In this document: piece by piece, positions 4,153 to 61,018 of the stretch
Layout: every line of letters starts with the position of its first letter
How positions within the stretch are numbered: position 1 is the first letter of the stretch
DNA from: Eledone cirrhosa
Lineage: Eukaryota
Assembly (NCBI GenBank): GCA_964016885.1
Contig: OZ024741.1
Coordinates: 65,906,001 to 65,970,000 of the forward strand
Length of the DNA: 64,000 nucleotides
Direction of reading: 5' to 3'
Made by a program: the position numbers and the translations under genes
Notes under the pieces: generated by a model
Databases searched by the model: none
Seen by the model: only the letters and a program-made list of their open reading frames with translations
What the model was told of the DNA's origin: nothing

Positions 4153-4179
4153 TATTATTATTACTATATATATATATAT

Positions 4180-4367
4180 GGGCGGTGGATTGGCAGTATC
4201 GGAAGAGGGTCGGACGCCATGCTTTCCAGCATAGTTACGTCCCTTTACGATCTGAGTTCAAATCCCGCCGAGGTTGACTTTGCCTTTCATCCTTACGGGG
4301 TCGATAAAATAAAGTACCAGTAATGCACTGGATAATTGCTGGCCTTGTGCCTAAAGTAGAAACAATT
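4180..4367 (+). mobile_element. tRNA-related SINE with Meta-like central domain (very abundant family)
   Basis: GGCGGTGGATTGGCAG..GAGTTCAAATCCC head, GCCTTTCATCCTTACGGGGTCGATAAAATAAAGTACC core and GGCCTTGTGCCTAAA..AGAAAC tail. Further copies near 850-1055, 7870-8056, 16430-16595, 25640-26020, 26960-27170, 37180-37670, 39290-39475, 41120-41280, 43390-43610 and 58700-59010. Confidence 0.8.
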
Positions 4368-4390
4368 ACTATATATATATATATTTGATG

Positions 4391-5488
4391 GAAGGTATAC
4401 GTTGCTGACGATAGCTAATAAGCTTGAAACTAGTACAGCGTTCCTTTGTCAGTGTTGAACAAACGAGCAACGATGGTTGCTGGACACTACGGCTTAATAC
4501 GGGATGTTTGTTTACAAACACACCGAGCATTATAATAAATGTTCGGTGAATCCATAAGTACATATATATATGTGTGCATGTATGTATATATATATACATA
4601 CTACTGTATGTCTGTATACATATATGTATGTACATGTACATACTTATATTTAAGTAACAGCCGTACTAAGAGTGGGAAATGAAATTTCGTTTCATTTTTT
4701 CCGCTTATCGTTTTCGGTGCACACGGTCGATTAACCCACTCGATATGCAAATTAGGCTTCTCAGCTGTTAATATGCATAAGGTAAGTATATACGTTCAAC
4801 AATCTGGCAGGAAGGTATACGTTGCTGACAATAGCTAATAAGCTTGAAACTAGTACAGCGTTCCTTTGTCAGTGTTGAACAAACGAGCAGCGATGGTTGC
4901 TGGACACTACGGCTTAATACAGGATGTTTGTTTACAAACACACCGAGCATTATAATAAATGTTCGGTGAATCCATACGTACATATATATATGTGTGCATA
5001 TATGTATATATATATACATACTACTGTACGTCTGTATACATATATGTATGTACGTGTACATACTTATATTTAAGTAACAGCCGTACTAAGAGTGGGAAAT
5101 GAAATTTCGTTTCATTTTTTCCGTTTATCGTTTTCGGTGCACCCAGCCGATTAACCCACTCGATATGCAAATTGGACTTCTCAGCTGTTAATATGCATAA
5201 GGTAAATATATACGTTCAACAATCTGGCAGGAAGGTATACGTTGCTGATGATAGCTAATAAGCTTGAAACTAGTACAGCATTCCTTTGTCAGTGTTGAAC
5301 AAACGAGCAACGATGGTTGCTGGACAATACGGCTTAATACGGGATGTTTGTTTACAAACACACCGAGCATTATAATAAATGTTCGGTGAATCCATACGTA
5401 CATATATATATGTGTGCATGTATGTATATATATATACATACTACTGTACGTCTGTATACATATATGTATGTACGTGTACATACTTATA
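4391..5488 (+). repeat. 420-bp tandem array (~2.6 units) with one hammerhead per unit; retrozyme-like
   Basis: GAAGGTATAC recurs at 4391, 4811 and 5231. HHR motif in each unit. Flanked by (TA)n. Homologous to the 470-bp array in the opposite orientation. Confidence 0.9.
4399..4441 (+). ncRNA. Minimal type I hammerhead ribozyme (further copies 4819-4861, 5239-5281)
   Basis: ACGTTG CTGACGA T AGCT AATA AGCT T GAAAC TA GTA CAGCGT: stem I, core, stem II, palindromic stem III (ACTAGT) and GUA triplet. Copy 2 has a G8A change (CTGACAA). Copy 3 has CTGATGA. Confidence 0.85.
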
Positions 5489-5610
5489 TATATATATATA
5501 TATAATATATATATGTGTGTAAATATATTCAAGTGTATTTAAACATAATCATCTTCATTTGTACGTCTGCTTTCTATACTGGCATGGGTTGAACTATAAA
5601 CGTCTGCTCA

Positions 5611-10888: not shown

Positions 10889-11100
10889 GATGTGAGAAAA
10901 ACCACAGACCCTCCATCTCAACTCTACTTTTGAAAAGCAGAAGAACTGCGAAACCGGTAAAGGAACCAAATAAATATATATATTTTTTTTAAAATAAGAC
11001 TCCAGTTGCATTTTCGATTTCATCTTTTTTTCTTTATACTTTCACGCGTGTAGGACACCTCGGTTATTTTTCATTTTGTAAAAAAAACCTCACTTTCTAA
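10889..11100 (+). mobile_element. ~210-bp (TA)n-embedded element carrying a U3-A8 hammerhead variant (second copy 60944-61157)
   Basis: Two near-identical copies 50 kb apart, both between (TA)n runs. HHR-like motif at 10927-10963. Confidence 0.75.
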
Positions 11101-11110
11101 TATATATATA

Positions 11111-14031
11111 TCATCATCATCATCATCATCATCAGCGTTTAACGTCCGTGTTCCACGCTTGCATGGGTTTGGACGGGGGTAGTCCCACTTGAGGCAAGAG
11201 TGATTGTCTTGCTCGCATAGGACTGTCTGGCAGGTTTTCTACAGTTGGATGCCCTTCCTAACACCAACCACATTTACAGTGTGGGTCTGGGAGGTTTTTA
11301 CCGTGTTGCCTACACGGCCACATTACAGCGTGGACTGTGTGTTTTTTTGTCGTGACACCTACACGATCTCATTTGTTTCGGCCTCGATGGCGCGGCACCG
11401 ACATAACTTTACATAGAACGGGGTGGTGTGGATCGGGTGGGGGTGGTGGGACGGGGTGTATTTGTTAGAGATGCCTACTGGCTGGAGTAGGTTTTACTAT
11501 ATATTTAGGTAAGGCGGGTCTTCTCTGTTACTGAGTACCGCCAAAGGTCTCGGTCCAGTGACATTGTCTTGGAGAGGTGTAAGTGTGTGATGTCGGAGTT
11601 TATCAGCTCGTCCCAGGTTTTTCTAGGTCTGCCTATTCCGTGACTACCGTCTATCTTTATTGCCCTGCACTTTGTTATACAGCTATCGACTTTCATGCGC
11701 ATCACGTGTCCATACCAACGTAGCCTTCTCTCGAGTAAACAACATCTGATCCCTCTTATCTCTAATTTATTCCTTAGTTCGTTTATGCTTTGCCGTTCAC
11801 GTATATTACTGTTACACATCCAGCGGAGCATGCAAGCTTCGTTCCTCTCTAGTCTGCGTATATCCTCTGCACACAATGCCCAGGTCTCACTGCCATGCAG
11901 CATTGCTGTTCGTATGCAGGCATCGTACAACCTGCCTTTCATTTTTAGTGAGAACCCTTTAGCAGCTAATAGTGGTATAAGCTCTCTGAACTTTTTCCAA
12001 CCAGTTCTGACTCTAGCTACAGTACTTTCAGAGCACCCTCCCCCACTGCTGATTTTATCGCCCAGGTAACGGAAGCTGTCCACTATTTCTATAGAACCCT
12101 CTGCGCAATTGAAAGAGCTAGTAGTTTGTGGGCACTTGCTGCTACTTATTGCACCAGAGCACCGGCCACATGTAAAATCTATGTTCTTAGTTAGCCTACC
12201 TGTGATCCCACTACATCTTTTATGCACCCATACTTTGCATTTAGGACATAGAATGGAGTTTCTACCTACGCCTTTCCTACACACCGAGCACGACCATTTC
12301 CCAGAAGGGACCGCCGCCTTGTTTTCTTTCCTACAAACTAGTACTTTGGTCTTAGCCAGGTTAATTTTAAGTCCTTTTGACTCTAGGCCGTGCTTCCATG
12401 TTTGGAATTTCTTCTCTAGCTCGGCCATTGATTCCGCTATGAGTGTCAGGTCGTCTGCGTATAGGAGTTCCCATGGGCAGCCTGTCTTGAACTCCTCTGT
12501 TATGGCCTGAAGGGCAATAATAAATAGTAGTGGACTGAGAACAGAGCCCTGATGGACGCCGACTTTTACGCTAAACTCTTCACTATATTCGTTGTTAATT
12601 CTAACCTTGCTGACTGTTTCTTTATACATGGCTTGTATAGCCCTCACAAGCCATTCGTCAACGCCTAGTTTTCTAAGAGCCCACCAGATAATGGAGCGGG
12701 GGACTCTGTCGAAGGCTTTCTCCAAGTCGACAAAAGCTAAGTAGAGGGGTTTACCTTTAGCTAGGTACTTCTCTTGTAGTTGTCGTACTATGAAAAGAGC
12801 GTCTGTGGTACTTTTGCCTGACACAAACCCGAACTGCATTTCATCTAGGTCAATTCTCTCTCTGATTAGCTGCGCTATTACTCTTTCCGTGACCTTCATG
12901 ACCTGGTCGATTAATTTAATGCCTCTATAGTTACTCCTATCTAGGGCGTCTCCTTTACCCTTATAACAGTTAACGATGATGCTGCTATGCCAGTCCTTCG
13001 GAACAACCCCGTTTTGTACGACTTGGTTAACTATGCGGGTGACCATGGTGTGTCCCACCGTGCCAGATGCCTTCAGCATCTCAGCAACTATTTCCGAAGG
13101 CCCAGCCGCCTTACCAGTCTTCATATCCTTGATTGCCTTACTTATTATACTCCCCTCGACTAACACTGCTGGTCCCTCTATTGGGTCGATATGGGGGAGA
13201 CTGCCTTTCTCCCAATTATTCTCCTCATTTAGAAGCCTTTCATAGTGACACTTCCAAGCTACCTTCTTATCAGCGTCGGTGATGGCAAGTGTGCCATCGT
13301 CGTTTAGTACACACTTCTCCCCGACAATATCACGGTTTTCCTTGACGCATTGCCTAGCAATCCTGAACACCTCACGTTTTTGGTCGTCGCGTTGTAGAAC
13401 ATGCTTGAACTTTCTTTCCTCAGCTTCCCTTCTTGCTAAGTACACTTGTCTCCTAGCTTCCCTCCTGGCCACTTGATAGTCCTCTCTACTTCCCCCATCC
13501 CGCCATACTTTCCAAGCCTGCTTTTTGGCCTTAATTGACCCCTCCACCTTACTGTTCCACCACCATGTTACTCTCCTCCTGCCTACAGGCCTGCTCCAGC
13601 CACAGACCTCGTCTGTCGCCAACAGCAGGTTTGCTTTCAGAAATTCCCACTCTCCCTCTATATTGTCCGACTCTAAATGTTCTTCCTTACTGTCGAAAGC
13701 ATCAAGTAATATGCTTTGAAATTTATTCCTGGCTGTGGGGTCCTTTAACTTCCATATTTTCCTCCTGAGGATAGTCCTCTTCTGTTGTCGAGTACGTCTC
13801 GTCCTGACTATGAGGTCGCTAATTATCAGTCTATGTTGGGAGGTGCATTCTTCATGGGGGAGGGATTTAGTGTTAACAACAGACACTCTGTCACGTCTTC
13901 TGGTAAGGATATAATCTACCTGGCTTGTGTGTTCCCCGGATCTATAGGTGATCAGGTGATTGTCACGTTTTTTGAAGTTAGTGTTACAGATAGTTAGGTT
14001 ATTTGCATCACAGAATTCCAGGATTCTGGAA

Positions 14032-14032
<1 letters not shown>
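11111..14032 (-). mobile_element. RTE-clade LINE, 5'-truncated within the endonuclease domain
   Basis: Long open frame, ~390-bp 3' UTR and (GAT)n tail. (TA)n at both ends. Confidence 0.95.
11505..14030 (-). CDS. RTE ORF: C-terminal APE, reverse transcriptase and PHD-like zinc finger
   Basis: APE end QVDYIL..SQHRLI. RT motifs YRGIKL, QFGF, FVDLEKAFDRV, GVHQGSVLSPLLF, YADD and FRYLG. C4HC3 motif. RTE C-terminus RRLRWYGHV..GRPRKTW. The listed N-terminal 15 residues are microsatellite-derived. Confidence 0.95.
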   Translation of the reverse strand, partial: SRILEFCDANNLTICNTNFKKRDNHLITYRSGEHTSQVDYILTRRRDRVSVVNTKSLPHEECTSQHRLIISDLIVRTRRTRQQKRTILRRKIWKLKDPTARNKFQSILLDAFDSKEEHLESDNIEGEWEFLKANLLLATDEVCGWSRPVGRRRVTWWWNSKVEGSIKAKKQAWKVWRDGGSREDYQVARREARRQVYLARREAEERKFKHVLQRDDQKREVFRIARQCVKENRDIVGEKCVLNDDGTLAITDADKKVAWKCHYERLLNEENNWEKGSLPHIDPIEGPAVLVEGSIISKAIKDMKTGKAAGPSEIVAEMLKASGTVGHTMVTRIVNQVVQNGVVPKDWHSSIIVNCYKGKGDALDRSNYRGIKLIDQVMKVTERVIAQLIRERIDLDEMQFGFVSGKSTTDALFIVRQLQEKYLAKGKPLYLAFVDLEKAFDRVPRSIIWWALRKLGVDEWLVRAIQAMYKETVSKVRINNEYSEEFSVKVGVHQGSVLSPLLFIIALQAITEEFKTGCPWELLYADDLTLIAESMAELEKKFQTWKHGLESKGLKINLAKTKVLVCRKENKAAVPSGKWSCSVCRKGVGRNSILCPKCKVWVHKRCSGITGRLTKNIDFTCGRCSGAISSSKCPQTTSSFNCAEGSIEIVDSFRYLGDKISSGGGCSESTVARVRTGWKKFRELIPLLAAKGFSLKMKGRLYDACIRTAMLHGSETWALCAEDIRRLERNEACMLRWMCNSNIRERQSINELRNKLEIRGIRCCLLERRLRWYGHVMRMKVDSCITKCRAIKIDGSHGIGRPRKTWDELINSDITHLHLSKTMSLDRDLWRYSVTEKTRLT

Positions 14033-14063
<31 letters not shown>

Positions 14064-17000
14064 GCATACACACACACAACATTGTATATATTTTCTTTCA
14101 AATACACCTTGATATATTGATATATCTGTTCTATTTCACATACAATCCTTCATATATATATTTTTTCAAACTCACACAAAAAACACACACATGCACATAA
14201 CGCCAATACTACACAAACACACAATACTAATACTACAAAAATACACACACACAACACCAATATCACACACATATATACGCATATATGTACATGCCACATG
14301 CGTAATAAATGCACCAGTTTATTGAACGGCAAAGTTAGTAAATGTTAACAGATCAGAAGTGAACGACTTTCTGAGATTTAGATAAAAACAGATATTGATT
14401 GAATATTTGCAGGCATATCATGTTGGAACCATTCTCTCAGACATCTTTACCATTCCACTACTCTAACACCAACTGCCATCATCACCACCACCACTATTGC
14501 CACTGCCACCACCATCACCACCACCACCACCACCACTACTACAACCACAACTACCACTACCACTACTGCCACTGCCAGCACCATCACCAAAATTGCTGCC
14601 ACCTTTACTACCATCATCTCTGCCAACATCTCTATTGCCAATACCACTACCACCACCACAAATGCAGCCTCACACCACCACAACTACAACTTCCGCCTCA
14701 CACCACCACCACCACCACCATAACCATTACCATAAATTGTAACCAACATCAACACAAGCATCTTTCTTGCCACAACTGTATTACACTCAACACCATGCAA
14801 AGCCAATGGGAGAGCCTATACATGGTCATTTGAATGTTAGAAATAATAACCAATCCTCCCTCTAAATTACACTATTGTCTTAGAAAATGAACACATTGGA
14901 TAATGTGATATAGAAGCTCCTACACATAGGAAAATGACAGGATGGTCATGGATAGGATTGTCTAATCACAGGTTTACTTGATTAGGGGTGGCCTGGAGCT
15001 GGAGCTAAACAACAACTACTTGGCCCAACTATTGCCAATACATTAATCATAACCACTACCATCATCACCACCACCACCAACACCAACACCAACACCACCA
15101 CCACCACCACCATCACCACCATCACCATCACGATCATCCCTACCAACAGCATTTTAATGCCACCCTCGCCAAACTATTTTTCTCCTCCTTAGCCATCCTG
15201 AACATCGCCATCACACTCAACATAATTATTACTATTACCACCACCACCACCACCACACCACCATCACCACCACCACTGTTCCTGCCAAAATTCTTCCCCA
15301 CACAACTGCCACCACTCCACTAACTCGATAACCTCATGCTAATTGTAACTATAAGCATTTACATCAATTTCTTTACCATTATTGTCCTTACAGCTATCCA
15401 CTGCAGCTACCACCACCACCACAGTAACACTGCTGCCAATACTACAACCATTACTACTACTCTAACCAGCACCATCACTACCAACACCAACACCACCACC
15501 AACACCACCACCTACACCACAACTACCACCACTATCACCACCACTAACACTGTTGCCAACACTACAACCTTTACTACTACTAAAACCACCATCACCATCA
15601 CCACCACAGTAACACAGTTGCCAACACTACAACCATTACTACTACTAAAACCACCACCATCACCACCACAACTACTAGTACTGCAGCAGTACTGCAGCCA
15701 ACACCAATTTCTATGCCAACTTCACCACCACCACCACCACCACCACTGCCACAAGGAAGTCTCTATATGGTTACACAGGTTGTTAGAAATAGCAGTAAAA
15801 TTTCCCTCAAATTACATTCCACCCTCTTATAAAAGAACACAGATGATAGGATTTTGGGGTTCCTGCACATAGAGGGATGGGGGGTGGGGGGGGGGAATGG
15901 TCATGGGTATGCAGAATCAAAGTTGATCTGAGGCTCAACATCAATGACAAAACTATTACTTAAAACAATGAGAGAGCTTTGAAATGTTCACCAGAAGTAG
16001 TAGAAACAACAGCCAAATCTTCAACTCACACTCATTGTCTTAAAAAAAAAAAAAGACCAGTTTGATTGTGAATGGAACATTTCTGATCAGAGGTCTGCTC
16101 AATCAGAATTGACCTGGGGTTAAACAGCAACACAGCTACTGTGGTGATCTCAGTTCCTCGGAGCATGCTGGTCTCATGCTGCCTCCATTCAGCTACAGCT
16201 GAGTTAGACATCTTTCTGCTTGCTATCATCTATAATGTGTTCACCCTGCACACTCTGCACTAACCACTATGTCCAATTTTTCCTCCATATAAACGATGGT
16301 ATGGTCCCATAACTCCAGATAGAGTAGTAGAGGTGCTGTATTGACATACAGCATTTCTTCGACCTTTTAAGCCTGGCGGAGTCTATCTCTCTCCAGGTCT
16401 GAGTACAGTAGATTTCTTCCAGAGAGAGGAAGAATCGACCCCAGTACTTGACTAGTACTTTTTTTTTATTGAACTCGAAAGGATGAAAGGCAAAGTTGAC
16501 CGTGGCAGGATTTGAACTAAGAGAGCAGAAAGCTGGAATGAATACCATAAAGCATTCGATCTGATGTTCTAAGGACTCTGTCAATTCGCCACCTATATAT
16601 AAATGATAACTCATAATATATTGTCCAACATGACACCACATTAGCTAGACATTCTTAAAAAGTACAAAACTATGCATTTTGACTGCATCACATTAAAAAA
16701 AATTGAAGTATTTACCTAGGGCTAACCTGGGACTACACAACAACAACAACAAATACATCACAAATAATAGTAACACACCAGTCTTTAACTCTTAACATCC
16801 TGTACCACATAAAACCGCATTAGCAAAACATTCTTTAAAAAGTATAGAACAAAACTATGACTGCATCACATTAAAAGTCAATGTCTTTACTCTCATATTT
16901 TAAAAACATTTGCACAACAATCTGTCCACCAATAAAATACAATCAACATTTGAATTAACAAACCCATTTTAGACATTTTCTGCTGTATATCATAACTCAT

Positions 17001-27865: not shown

Positions 27866-28010
27866 GAGATTTGACAAATAAAGATTGGTTAAATAAGTAC
27901 CAGACTGAAATAACTACTAGTATCAATATGTTTGACTAAAACTCTTGAAGACAGTGACCCTACATGGCAGTAGTCTAATGACTTAAACCAGTAAAAGAAT
28001 ATATTTATAT

Positions 28011-29264
28011 CCATGGGAATTCCTATATGCGGATGATCTCGCACTTATAGCTGAATCTATGGTGGAACTAGAGAAGAAATTCCAAACCTGGAAGCAGGGA
28101 CTAGAAAGAAAGGGTCTGAAAGTCAACCTGACAAAGACTAAGGTCCTTGTAAGTAGACGAGAAAACAGAACCCAGATCCCCTCAGGGAAATGGCCTTCCT
28201 CAGTATGTAGGAAAGGTGTAGGTAGGAACTCCATCCTCTGCCCCAAATGCAAACAATGGGTACACAAGAGATGTAGTGGGATCTCAGGAAGCTTAACTAA
28301 GAATGTAGGCTTTATATGTAGCACCTGCACCGGGACAGCAAGCAGCAAACGGCCACAGGAAACAAGCTCTATCAAACTCTGGGAGGCCTCTGTAGAAACA
28401 GTAGACAGCTTCTGCTACCTAGGTGACCGAATTAGCAGCGGAGGTGGGTGTTCGGAAAATACAATAACTAGGGTAAGAACTGCTAGCTGCAAAAGGCTTT
28501 TCCCTCAAAACGAAAGGCAGACTGTATGATGCGTGTATACAAACAGCAATGTTACATGGTAGTGAGACCTGGGCGCTGTCTGTAGAAGACTTGCGTAGAT
28601 TAGAAAGAAACGAAGCCTGCATGTGCCGATGGATGTGTAATAGTAATATACGCGAACTGCAAAGCATAAACGAATTGGGAGAAAGACTGAGCATAAGAGG
28701 AATCAAATGCTGCGTGCAGGAGAGGAGATTGTGTTGGTATGGACATGTGATGCGTATGAAGAATGCATAAAAAGGTGCAAAGCACTAGAAGTCGATGGAA
28801 GCAGCAGAGTGGGGAGACCCAAGAAGACCCGGGATGAGGTGATAAAAGCCGACCTTACCCAATTGCACCTCTCAAGGTCGATGACACAGGACCGTGACCT
28901 CTGGCGTCACGCAGTAATACAGAAGACCCGACTTCCCACGGGGACAAACTGAAGCTGAAGCATATAGACAATATGCCCCCCTCACTGCAAAGTGGTCGTG
29001 GAGGTGCCACGGCAAAAAAGCACCCAGCCCACATTGTAAAGTGGATGTGTAGGCGCCACGGAAAAAAAGCACCCAGCTGTCACTGTAAATGAGGTTGGTG
29101 TTAGGAAGGGCAGCCAGCTGTAGAACTGAAGCCAGAATCAATTCCCGTATGAGCAAGACAAGGTCAGCCGAATGGACACTGCCCACAACAGGACAACCCG
29201 TCTAACCCATGCTAGCGTGGAAGAACGGACGTAAAACGGTGATGATGATGATGATGATGATGAT
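28011..29264 (+). mobile_element. 5'-truncated, frameshifted RTE LINE
   Basis: PWEFLYADDL, PHD-like motif, FCYLG, UTR and (GAT)n. Confidence 0.9.
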
Positions 29265-54049: not shown

Positions 54050-54720
54050 TACAATATAAACATTTATATATATATATATATATATATATAACATGCATGC
54101 AATCATACATATATACATGCATACAATGGAGTATGTATATAATAGTATATATATATAACATGCATACAATCATACATATACACAAATAAACATGCATGCA
54201 ATCATACATATATACATGCATGCAATCGAGCATGCATATAATAGTACATAGAGATGTGATCTTCGTATGAATAAGACACTGTTGCACTTAAAATATCAAG
54301 TAAACATCACACACATACGCACATGATGCATGCATAGATAAGCATTCACAGACATATAGAAAATAAACAGTGAAAGACACCATCCTCGTTCTGATGAGTG
54401 AGACTTTGCTGCAGTTAAAAATATCAAGTTAAACACTTAGGCAGTTACAAATGTGTGCTCGTTCTCATCCTCACGCATCCATACACACATACATACATAC
54501 ACAGAGGCAGGCACACACACACATACACACACAGAGGCACATCGCTGAAAAAAAAACACTAGCACAAACACAAAGTACATTAGACGAAGTAAACAATACA
54601 AGTACACGTACTCGTATTAGAAATCACTATGTGAGACTTAGGTGCAACTGAATAAAAAAGACCCTTACATACGTACAAATATAAATACGTGAAGTACATA
54701 CATAGATGTTTTATATATAT

Positions 54721-54979
54721 ACGGAAAAAATGAAACGAAATTTCATTTCTCACTTTTAGTACGGCTGTTACTTAAATATAAGTATGTATACGTACATACA
54801 TATATGTATACAGACGTACAATAGTATGTATATGTATATACATACATGCACACATATATATATATGTGTGTATGTATGTATATATATATACATACTACTG
54901 TACGTCTGTATACATATATGTATGTACGTATATATATATATATATACTACTGTACGTCTGTATACATATATGTATGTAC

Positions 54980-60980: not shown

Positions 60981-61018
60981 CCTTTTGAAAAGCAGAAGAA
61001 CTGCGAAACCGGTAAAGG
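60981..61018 (+). ncRNA. Minimal type I hammerhead, U3-A8 core variant
   Basis: CCTT TTGAAAA GCAG AAGAA CTGC GAAAC CG GTA AAGG. Confidence 0.7.

What the first reader, a model, noticed from the sequence alone, without database searches (positions are those of the whole stretch)
4391..5488. Sister 420-bp HHR array: stem I covaries and the 3' end point is shared
Seen: this array is homologous to the 470-bp family but diverged. Stem I is ACGUUG/CAGCGU here and ACGGUG/CAUCGU there, a U-G to G-U double swap. The stem II loop differs (AAUA vs AACA) while the core and stem III are kept. Both arrays end at the homologous CATACTTA(T/C)AT position running into (TA)n. Units here have diverged from each other (one has G8A), so this insertion is older. 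Inference: the RNA fold is under selection and there is a defined priming site.
Basis: partly seen in the sequence, partly recalled or inferred. Interest (0 to 1): 0.75.

Follow-up and report, generated by a model that had tools for sequence, protein, structure and literature searches.

The report
Hammerhead retrozyme with Penelope-type ends
This is one ageing copy of an abundant 420-base non-coding repeat that carries a predicted self-cutting RNA motif; its copies end at two fixed sites about 59 bases apart, the known mark of Penelope-type jumping genes, whose enzymes likely copy it around this animal genome.

Summary
The array is real: 2.6 units of 420 bp, each with a canonical type I hammerhead, 75% identical to the 470-bp array. 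It belongs to a dispersed superfamily (23,643 ribozyme matches in 3.0 Gb). The U·G/G·U 'swap' likely passed through A-U and U·U states. The loop difference is not diagnostic. The 3' end is fixed but double: 212 of 250 ends fall at two sites about 59 nt apart, and 56 of 59 two-armed insertions use one of each. This is the Penelope 'tail' (two reverse-transcription starts). The older age is supported. Each unit also carries a motif pair resembling this genome's U6 promoter. Verdict: a non-LTR retrozyme, likely mobilised by a Penelope-like element; no partner with a homologous end was found; cleavage, expression and circles are untested. The class is known, and this scan already reported the two-end pattern on other DNA of this genome.

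The parts
4390..5488 (+). Array A: single-armed retrozyme insertion, 2.6 units of 420 bp, 5'-truncated, ending at site E1
4392..4446 (+). Unit 1 type I hammerhead (distal and proximal stem I, core 4405-4435, stem II, palindromic stem III); predicted cut after 4435; intact
4812..4866 (+). Unit 2 hammerhead with G8A at 4830 (CpG change; predicted inactive)
5232..5286 (+). Unit 3 hammerhead, core intact, stem I mismatch from G>A at 5280
4745..4792 (+). U6-promoter-like motif pair in unit 1: ATGCAAAT (4745-4752) and TATATA (4787-4792); repeated at 5165-5212 in unit 2
5059..5128 (+). Internal copy of the 'tail' between E1 and E2: two predicted hairpins and a T6 run (5115-5120); also at about 4639-4708
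5479..5505 (+). 3' junction at E1 running into (TA)n
47345..50904 (-). Array B: 7.6 identical 470-bp units, long arm, ends at E1
50902..51102 (+). Inverted second arm of array B, ends at E2 into (TA)n
54717..54946 (.). Third, short two-armed A-type insertion without a hammerhead; minus arm ends at E2, plus arm ends just short of E1

Best explanation
This is a copy of a non-coding tandem repeat with a type I hammerhead fold (a non-LTR retrozyme) whose copies sit in (TA)n runs and end at two fixed internal sites, and it was likely inserted by the reverse transcriptase and GIY-YIG endonuclease of a Penelope-like element. Shown: anatomy, dispersal, two end sites, their pairing in two-armed insertions, scattered 5' ends, covariation. 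Inferred steps: (1) a U6-like promoter in one unit drives transcription into the next (about 0.55). (2) Hammerheads cut, probably as dimers through the palindromic stem III, and the monomer is ligated to a circle, as shown for coral, mussel and axolotl retrozymes (about 0.55 for a circular template). (3) The Penelope protein nicks both strands of a (TA)n target and starts one cDNA at E1 and the other at E2 on the same RNA species. (4) The cDNAs run through the ribozyme site for variable lengths and are joined head to head, or one arm alone is kept, as in array A. (5) After insertion the copy decays neutrally, which explains G8A and the unit 3 mismatch.
For: 212 of 250 unique 3' ends lie in two windows covering 11.9% of the unit, against 29 of 255 5' ends; 195 of those 212 abut (TA)n. 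Of 59 two-armed insertions with both ends classed, 56 are E1+E2 (one duplicate row removed). PMC11167929 shows in vitro that a Penelope protein cuts and extends both strands and starts at two internal RNA sites that bound the genomic tail. PMC8557442 describes inverted 5' arms, tails and (TA)n bias. The genome holds autonomous elements with RT plus GIY-YIG, some with ORFs of 900-905 aa, and six families read by eye also end at two sites 35-62 nt apart in (TA)n. Covariation. U·U mismatch copies are 232 of 23,643. Opposite arms of one insertion are as alike as units of one arm. 5' ends are not enriched at the cut site (3 seen, 9.7 expected), so the template is not a cut linear monomer. Promoter likeness.
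Against: No autonomous element with a terminal repeat homologous to the retrozyme was found in 80 Penelope-like loci, so the partner is unidentified. The tail (about 59 nt) is longer than the 30-40 nt described in print. The promoter motifs are 42-43 nt apart, against 46-48 nt in three host U6 genes. A T6 run just before E2 would be expected to stop polymerase III, yet copies read through it. RNAfold does not give the hammerhead fold as the minimum-energy structure, and z-scores are -1.2 to +0.2. Rfam gives only a weak hammerhead hit (HH9, 18.2 bits against a cut-off of 52). 38 of 250 3' ends lie elsewhere. Loci were picked by ribozyme sequence, which biases counts towards intact ribozymes and may deplete 5' ends at the cut site.
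Confidence: 0.82

Rival explanations
1. Same Penelope-type mobilisation, but the template is an uncut linear multimer read from source arrays; the hammerhead has another role or is only carried along.
For: In vitro, Penelope insertion did not need hammerhead cleavage and used unprocessed RNA (PMC11167929). 201 of 246 arms hold at most one ribozyme, which a dimer transcript could supply. Eight of nine Xenopus retrozyme dimers did not cleave in vitro (bioRxiv 2026.07.22.740005).
Against: Long arms of identical units (median within-array divergence 0.5% in family B) and private indels shared by all matched units of an array fit repeated copying of one monomer. Deep covariation shows the fold matters for spread. 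These points favour a circle but do not prove it.
Confidence: 0.4
2. A satellite amplified at the DNA level (unequal crossover or extrachromosomal DNA circles), with a vestigial ribozyme.
For: Tandem units; homogeneous arrays; local amplification is proposed in bioRxiv 2026.07.22.740005 and may lengthen some arrays.
Against: Thousands of dispersed short copies, median arm about 500 nt, fixed 3' and random 5' ends, E1+E2 pairing and (TA)n targeting.
Confidence: 0.05
3. A SINE-like repeat mobilised by a LINE (for example the RTE-like family in this window), with inversions from twin priming.
For: An RT ORF with a PHD finger lies at 11505-14135; the unit has a polymerase III-like promoter; the T6 run lies next to E2.
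Against: Twin priming (recalled) gives a variable second start, not a fixed one 59 nt away. There is no poly(A) tail. Copies include sequence beyond the T6 run and include the upstream promoter. Either site can head the longer arm (29 versus 28, counted before the duplicate row was removed).
Confidence: 0.06
4. Terminal-repeat debris of an autonomous Penelope-like element rather than an independent retrozyme.
For: Same end structure as autonomous copies; Xenopus retrozymes resemble pLTRs (bioRxiv 2026.07.22.740005).
Against: Units join head to tail with no coding sequence; no homologous autonomous element in 80 loci; the ribozyme has the canonical 6-bp helix I and 4-bp helix II form, and the family has its own long lineage.
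Confidence: 0.07

Closest known systems
Metazoan non-LTR retrozymes (Cervera and de la Pena 2020, PMC7229834; newt satellite 2, coral, mussel, axolotl)
   Same: Tandem non-coding units within the 150-450 bp range (A) or just above it (B, 470 bp), low GC, a canonical type I hammerhead with short palindromic helix III, thousands of copies, Penelope-like elements in the same genome.
   Different: Cleavage and circular RNA were shown there and are untested here. The passages and Discussion I read describe no paired fixed end sites or two-armed insertions.
EN+ Penelope-like elements (PMC8557442; Poseidon PAc, PMC11167929)
   Same: Partial tandems, 5' truncation, inverted 5' arm, optional tail between two start sites, AT-rich or (TA)n targets, type I hammerhead upstream of the tail.
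   Different: No ORF; tail about 59 nt rather than 30-40; no homology found to any local autonomous family.
Newt satellite 2 (snRNA-type promoter, polymerase II) and schistosome satellite (polymerase III promoter), as cited in PMC2220036
   Same: Hammerhead repeat carrying its own small-RNA-type promoter inside the unit.
   Different: Here the motifs resemble this genome's U6 upstream region (PSE-like element plus TATA), not its U2 upstream region; function untested.
Nonautonomous Chlamys elements such as MRC1 (PMC8557442)
   Same: Nonautonomous, head-to-tail multicopy insertions made by a Penelope-like partner.
   Different: Those generally resemble their partner at the 3' end, and most Chlamys elements lack canonical hammerheads.

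Membership tests
Non-LTR retrozyme | Canonical type I hammerhead in each tandem unit | tested here: met
   unit 1 intact, units 2 and 3 carry one lesion each
Non-LTR retrozyme | Short tandem unit (150-450 bp), GC under 50% | tested here: met
   420 bp; local GC 0.36; the sister unit is 470 bp
Non-LTR retrozyme | No protein-coding capacity | tested here: met
   Only a stop-to-stop frame over TA-rich sequence, with no Pfam match
Non-LTR retrozyme | Many dispersed copies | tested here: met
   23,643 pattern matches for A, B and close kin, control 0; 10,391 exact for B
Non-LTR retrozyme | Self-cleavage of the RNA | not testable with these tools
   Needs an in vitro assay
Non-LTR retrozyme | Expression as linear and circular monomer RNA | not testable with these tools
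   No run on record as RNA was available to lay reads from
Penelope-mobilised element | Two fixed 3' end sites bounding a tail | tested here: met
   94 E1, 118 E2, 38 other of 250
Penelope-mobilised element | Inverted 5' arm, partial tandems, variable 5' truncation | tested here: met
   86 distinct two-armed insertions; 5' ends spread over the unit
Penelope-mobilised element | AT-rich or (TA)n target | tested here: met
   195 of 212 E1/E2 ends abut (TA)n, against 8 of 38 other ends
Penelope-mobilised element | Homology to the terminal repeat of an autonomous partner | tested here: inconclusive
   None in 80 loci of six families; the search scored only 150 of 10,597 GIY-YIG candidates
Autonomous Penelope-like element | RT plus GIY-YIG ORF | tested here: not met
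   No such ORF in or beside the array
U6-type (type 3) polymerase III promoter | PSE-like element and TATA at the host's U6 spacing | tested here: inconclusive
   Motif shared with 3 U6 upstream regions and absent from the 5 U2 upstream regions shown; spacing 42-43 versus 46-48 nt

The most novel reading that the evidence does not exclude
A self-sufficient ribozyme retroelement: each unit carries a captured U6-type promoter, a dimer-dependent hammerhead and two hairpin-marked start sites, so that a Penelope-type enzyme copies one RNA circle from both strands of a (TA)n break. It does this without sequence homology to its partner, which would make the lineage an old, independent parasite of Penelope machinery rather than terminal-repeat debris.
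Probability: 0.3. Interest if true: 0.65.

Novelty: new member of a known kind. Interest (0 to 1): 0.38.

Why it matters
The papers I read propose Penelope-like elements as the mobilisers of animal retrozymes from shared ribozymes, co-occurrence and pLTR likeness. The strict E1+E2 pairing is a footprint from the insertions themselves. It names two exact RNA sites to test with a purified enzyme, and it suggests that the Penelope tail marks which target strand primes where. The covarying stem III palindrome supports the dimeric-hammerhead model. The interest is limited because the class is known, the copy is decayed, and the scan has reported the same end pattern several times in this genome.

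Tried and rejected
DNA searches with the 470-bp unit found nothing, not even the window itself, presumably because very common words are skipped; an exact pattern worked. My first degenerate pattern had too long a gap and caught only 32 indel variants. Expression: no RNA holder listed. Contigs of four runs of unknown kind showed the same variants but gave no independent evidence; three had only 1-11 contigs laid. A-to-G editing scars: no significant strand bias in either family (A>G 45 vs T>C 30, p=0.17; 27 vs 18, p=0.30). The array's 5' end lies at the predicted promoter start, but 5' ends are not enriched there family-wide (13 seen, 10.9 expected), so I treat this as chance. Lower variation in the ribozyme core among copies is discarded because loci were chosen by that sequence. 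The E1 count for the older family was too noisy to use; its ends are cited only qualitatively. Rfam microRNA hits on the TA-rich part are all below cut-off. The retrozyme copies next to Penelope-like ORFs in L102 and L271 were rejected as terminal repeats: they are separate insertions in the same (TA)n run. R-scape was not available; a pair count with shuffles was used instead. The original newt promoter paper could not be read and is cited second-hand. A look-up of earlier scan notes by sequence returned nothing.

Full report
Observation. The array is at 4390-5489, period 420, 2.6 copies. Each unit starts with a type I hammerhead (cores at 4405, 4825, 5245): a 6-bp proximal stem I, a 3-nt bulge and 4-bp distal stem, the core CUGAnGA, a 4-bp stem II and a stem III formed by the palindrome ACUAGU. 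This matches the 'canonical metazoan' form described in PMC4209133 (passages). The unit is about 75% identical to the 470-bp array at 47345-50904. Unit 3 also has a stem I mismatch (5280), and the loop difference is polymorphic within family A (48 of 143 units AACA).

Family size. The window lies in a 3.0-Gb animal genome; that it is a cephalopod is my guess and the wording of earlier scan notes, not a test. A ribozyme pattern with the stem I pair left free has 23,643 matches, control 0. Among the first 100 listed I counted by hand 48 U·G, 38 G·U, 12 A-U and 2 U·U. The U·U form has 232 matches genome-wide, 1.0%; about a quarter would be expected if the two sides were independent, though kinship alone explains much of that coupling.

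Covariation. Flanks of other loci yielded three more distant lineages: an older family (2,040 candidates, 40 scored, 82-90% identical to the query), a family with a unit of about 476 bp and one of about 311 bp. On a gapless 59-column alignment of 54 rows (52 distinct), 94.8% of cells pair and 12 of 16 pairs change on both sides; 0 of 500 shuffles reach this, and slid structures give 2-6 pairs. Cells are not events: the signal rests on six lineages, two of them single sequences, and rows were chosen by an intact core. The two central bases of stem III are UA, AU or GC and are complementary to each other in 52 of 52 rows. They cannot pair within one molecule, so this supports the dimeric hammerhead. 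A tree of 75 rows (70 distinct) orders the groups G·U, A-U, U·U, U·G along one ladder, with U·U copies between the A-U and U·G groups and a small starred U·U clade inside A. Only 10 of 67 inner branches are starred and the root is unsure, but the swap was likely stepwise and the mismatch was tolerated for a time.

Ends. I mapped arms in 170 loci (60, 80). The two windows cover 11.9% of the unit and hold 29 of 255 5' ends. The 80 loci taken in genome order give 52, 65 and 22 of 139. One search lists 87 head-to-head two-armed rows, one duplicated. Of the 86, 4 touch a locus edge and 23 have an end elsewhere; of the remaining 59, 56 are E1+E2, 2 are E1+E1 and 1 is E2+E2. Of 65 lone arms, 36 end at E2, 19 at E1 and 10 elsewhere; array A is a lone E1 arm. 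Array B is two-armed, E1 at 47345 and E2 near 51100. E1 lies in the loop of a small predicted hairpin and E2 just past a larger one (z -2.6 in A, -1.9 in B). Homologous ends and the E2 hairpin are visible in the distant families.

Mechanism. PMC11167929 (parts 1-2 of 4 read; supplements not opened) shows that a purified Penelope protein cuts AT-rich DNA on both strands and starts reverse transcription at two internal RNA sites that bound the genomic 'tail'. PMC8557442 (passages) lists partial tandems, inverted 5' copies, a tail at one end and (TA)n bias. Our insertions show all of these. The genome has many RT plus GIY-YIG elements, including a young family with ORFs of up to 905 aa. Six families read by eye have two ends 35-62 nt apart in (TA)n. 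None of 80 such loci has a terminal repeat homologous to the retrozyme, so the partner is unknown. 5' ends do not pile up at the ribozyme cut, and 195 of 246 arms contain a ribozyme, so the template is a circle or an uncut multimer. Near-identical arms and private indels shared along an array lean to a circle, without proof.

Promoter. Upstream of the ribozyme each unit has ATGCAAAT and a TATA-like box. Three host U6 genes have the same motif at -76 to -78 and TATA at -30; five U2 upstream regions lack the motif. It is kept in the older and 476-bp families, and 0 of 33 background occurrences had a TATA box at the U6-like distance. Against it: spacing is 42-43 nt rather than 46-48, and a T6 run precedes E2. 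An earlier scan note gave me this lead. Internal small-RNA promoters are known for the newt and schistosome hammerhead repeats (passage in PMC2220036).

Age. The three units share family variants but differ by private changes, many at CpG. Median within-array divergence is 3.3% over 30 A arrays and 0.5% over 21 B arrays, while between-array divergence is about 4.7% in both. Array A is typical of an older burst. Perfect identity in array B could be partly assembly smoothing; not tested.

Comparison and novelty. This is a non-LTR retrozyme as defined in PMC7229834 (passages and Discussion read). bioRxiv 10.64898/2026.07.22.740005 (parts 1-3 of 5; supplements closed, and they could bear on invertebrate families) already argues that such elements are nonautonomous Penelope derivatives. 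Searches listed no paper on cephalopod retrozymes, on paired end sites in retrozymes or on a U6-type retrozyme promoter; I saw listings only for most hits, and subscription journals are not covered. Earlier reports of this scan describe the same two-armed, two-site pattern in this genome. Verdict: a real new member of a known kind, with a clear mechanistic footprint; interest 0.38.

Noticed in passing
window 4160-4384: A dispersed tRNA-like SINE (about 4180-4364) flanked by a 20-nt target duplication that includes the (TA)n run at the 5' side of array A. The same repeat interrupts several older-family copies. The SINE label is my reading, not a database match.
   Followed up: partly
window 11505-14135 (-); fragment 27987-28529 (+): 876-aa reading frame with RVT_1 and a PHD finger after the RT domain; looks like an RTE-clade LINE (label recalled).
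   Followed up: partly
window 10930-10959 and 60985-61014 (+); L102: Terminal-repeat hammerhead of an autonomous Neptune-like element, with a U3/A8 core variant and an ACCGGU stem III palindrome, a fourth palindrome variant.
   Followed up: partly
L278-L282; G000:C5:12578500-12584500 and others: Very abundant young Penelope-like family (150 scored hits at 94-100% identity, 26,328 candidates), ORFs up to 905 aa, tail of about 42 nt lying inside the 5' part of the reading frame.
   Followed up: partly
L271:2626-2940, L283-L312: Older retrozyme family homologous over promoter, ribozyme and tail, with a GUU cleavage triplet.
   Followed up: yes
L294:2525-3095; L297:2860-3237 (-); L103:1330-1400: Three further hammerhead repeat lineages: a unit of about 476 bp with the promoter motif, a unit of about 311 bp without it, and one with a longer stem III.
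   Followed up: partly
G000:C19:31.78-31.84 Mb; G000:C3:307.35-307.45 Mb: Tandem clusters of U6 genes (about 1.8-kb spacing) and U2 genes (about 2.2-kb spacing). In some U6 copies a dispersed repeat lies between the promoter motifs and the gene.
   Followed up: no
L124-L128 (G000:C4:375.75 Mb): An array with a unit variant that jumps from the TA-rich part straight to stem I, skipping the tail and promoter, beside near-full-length units.
   Followed up: no
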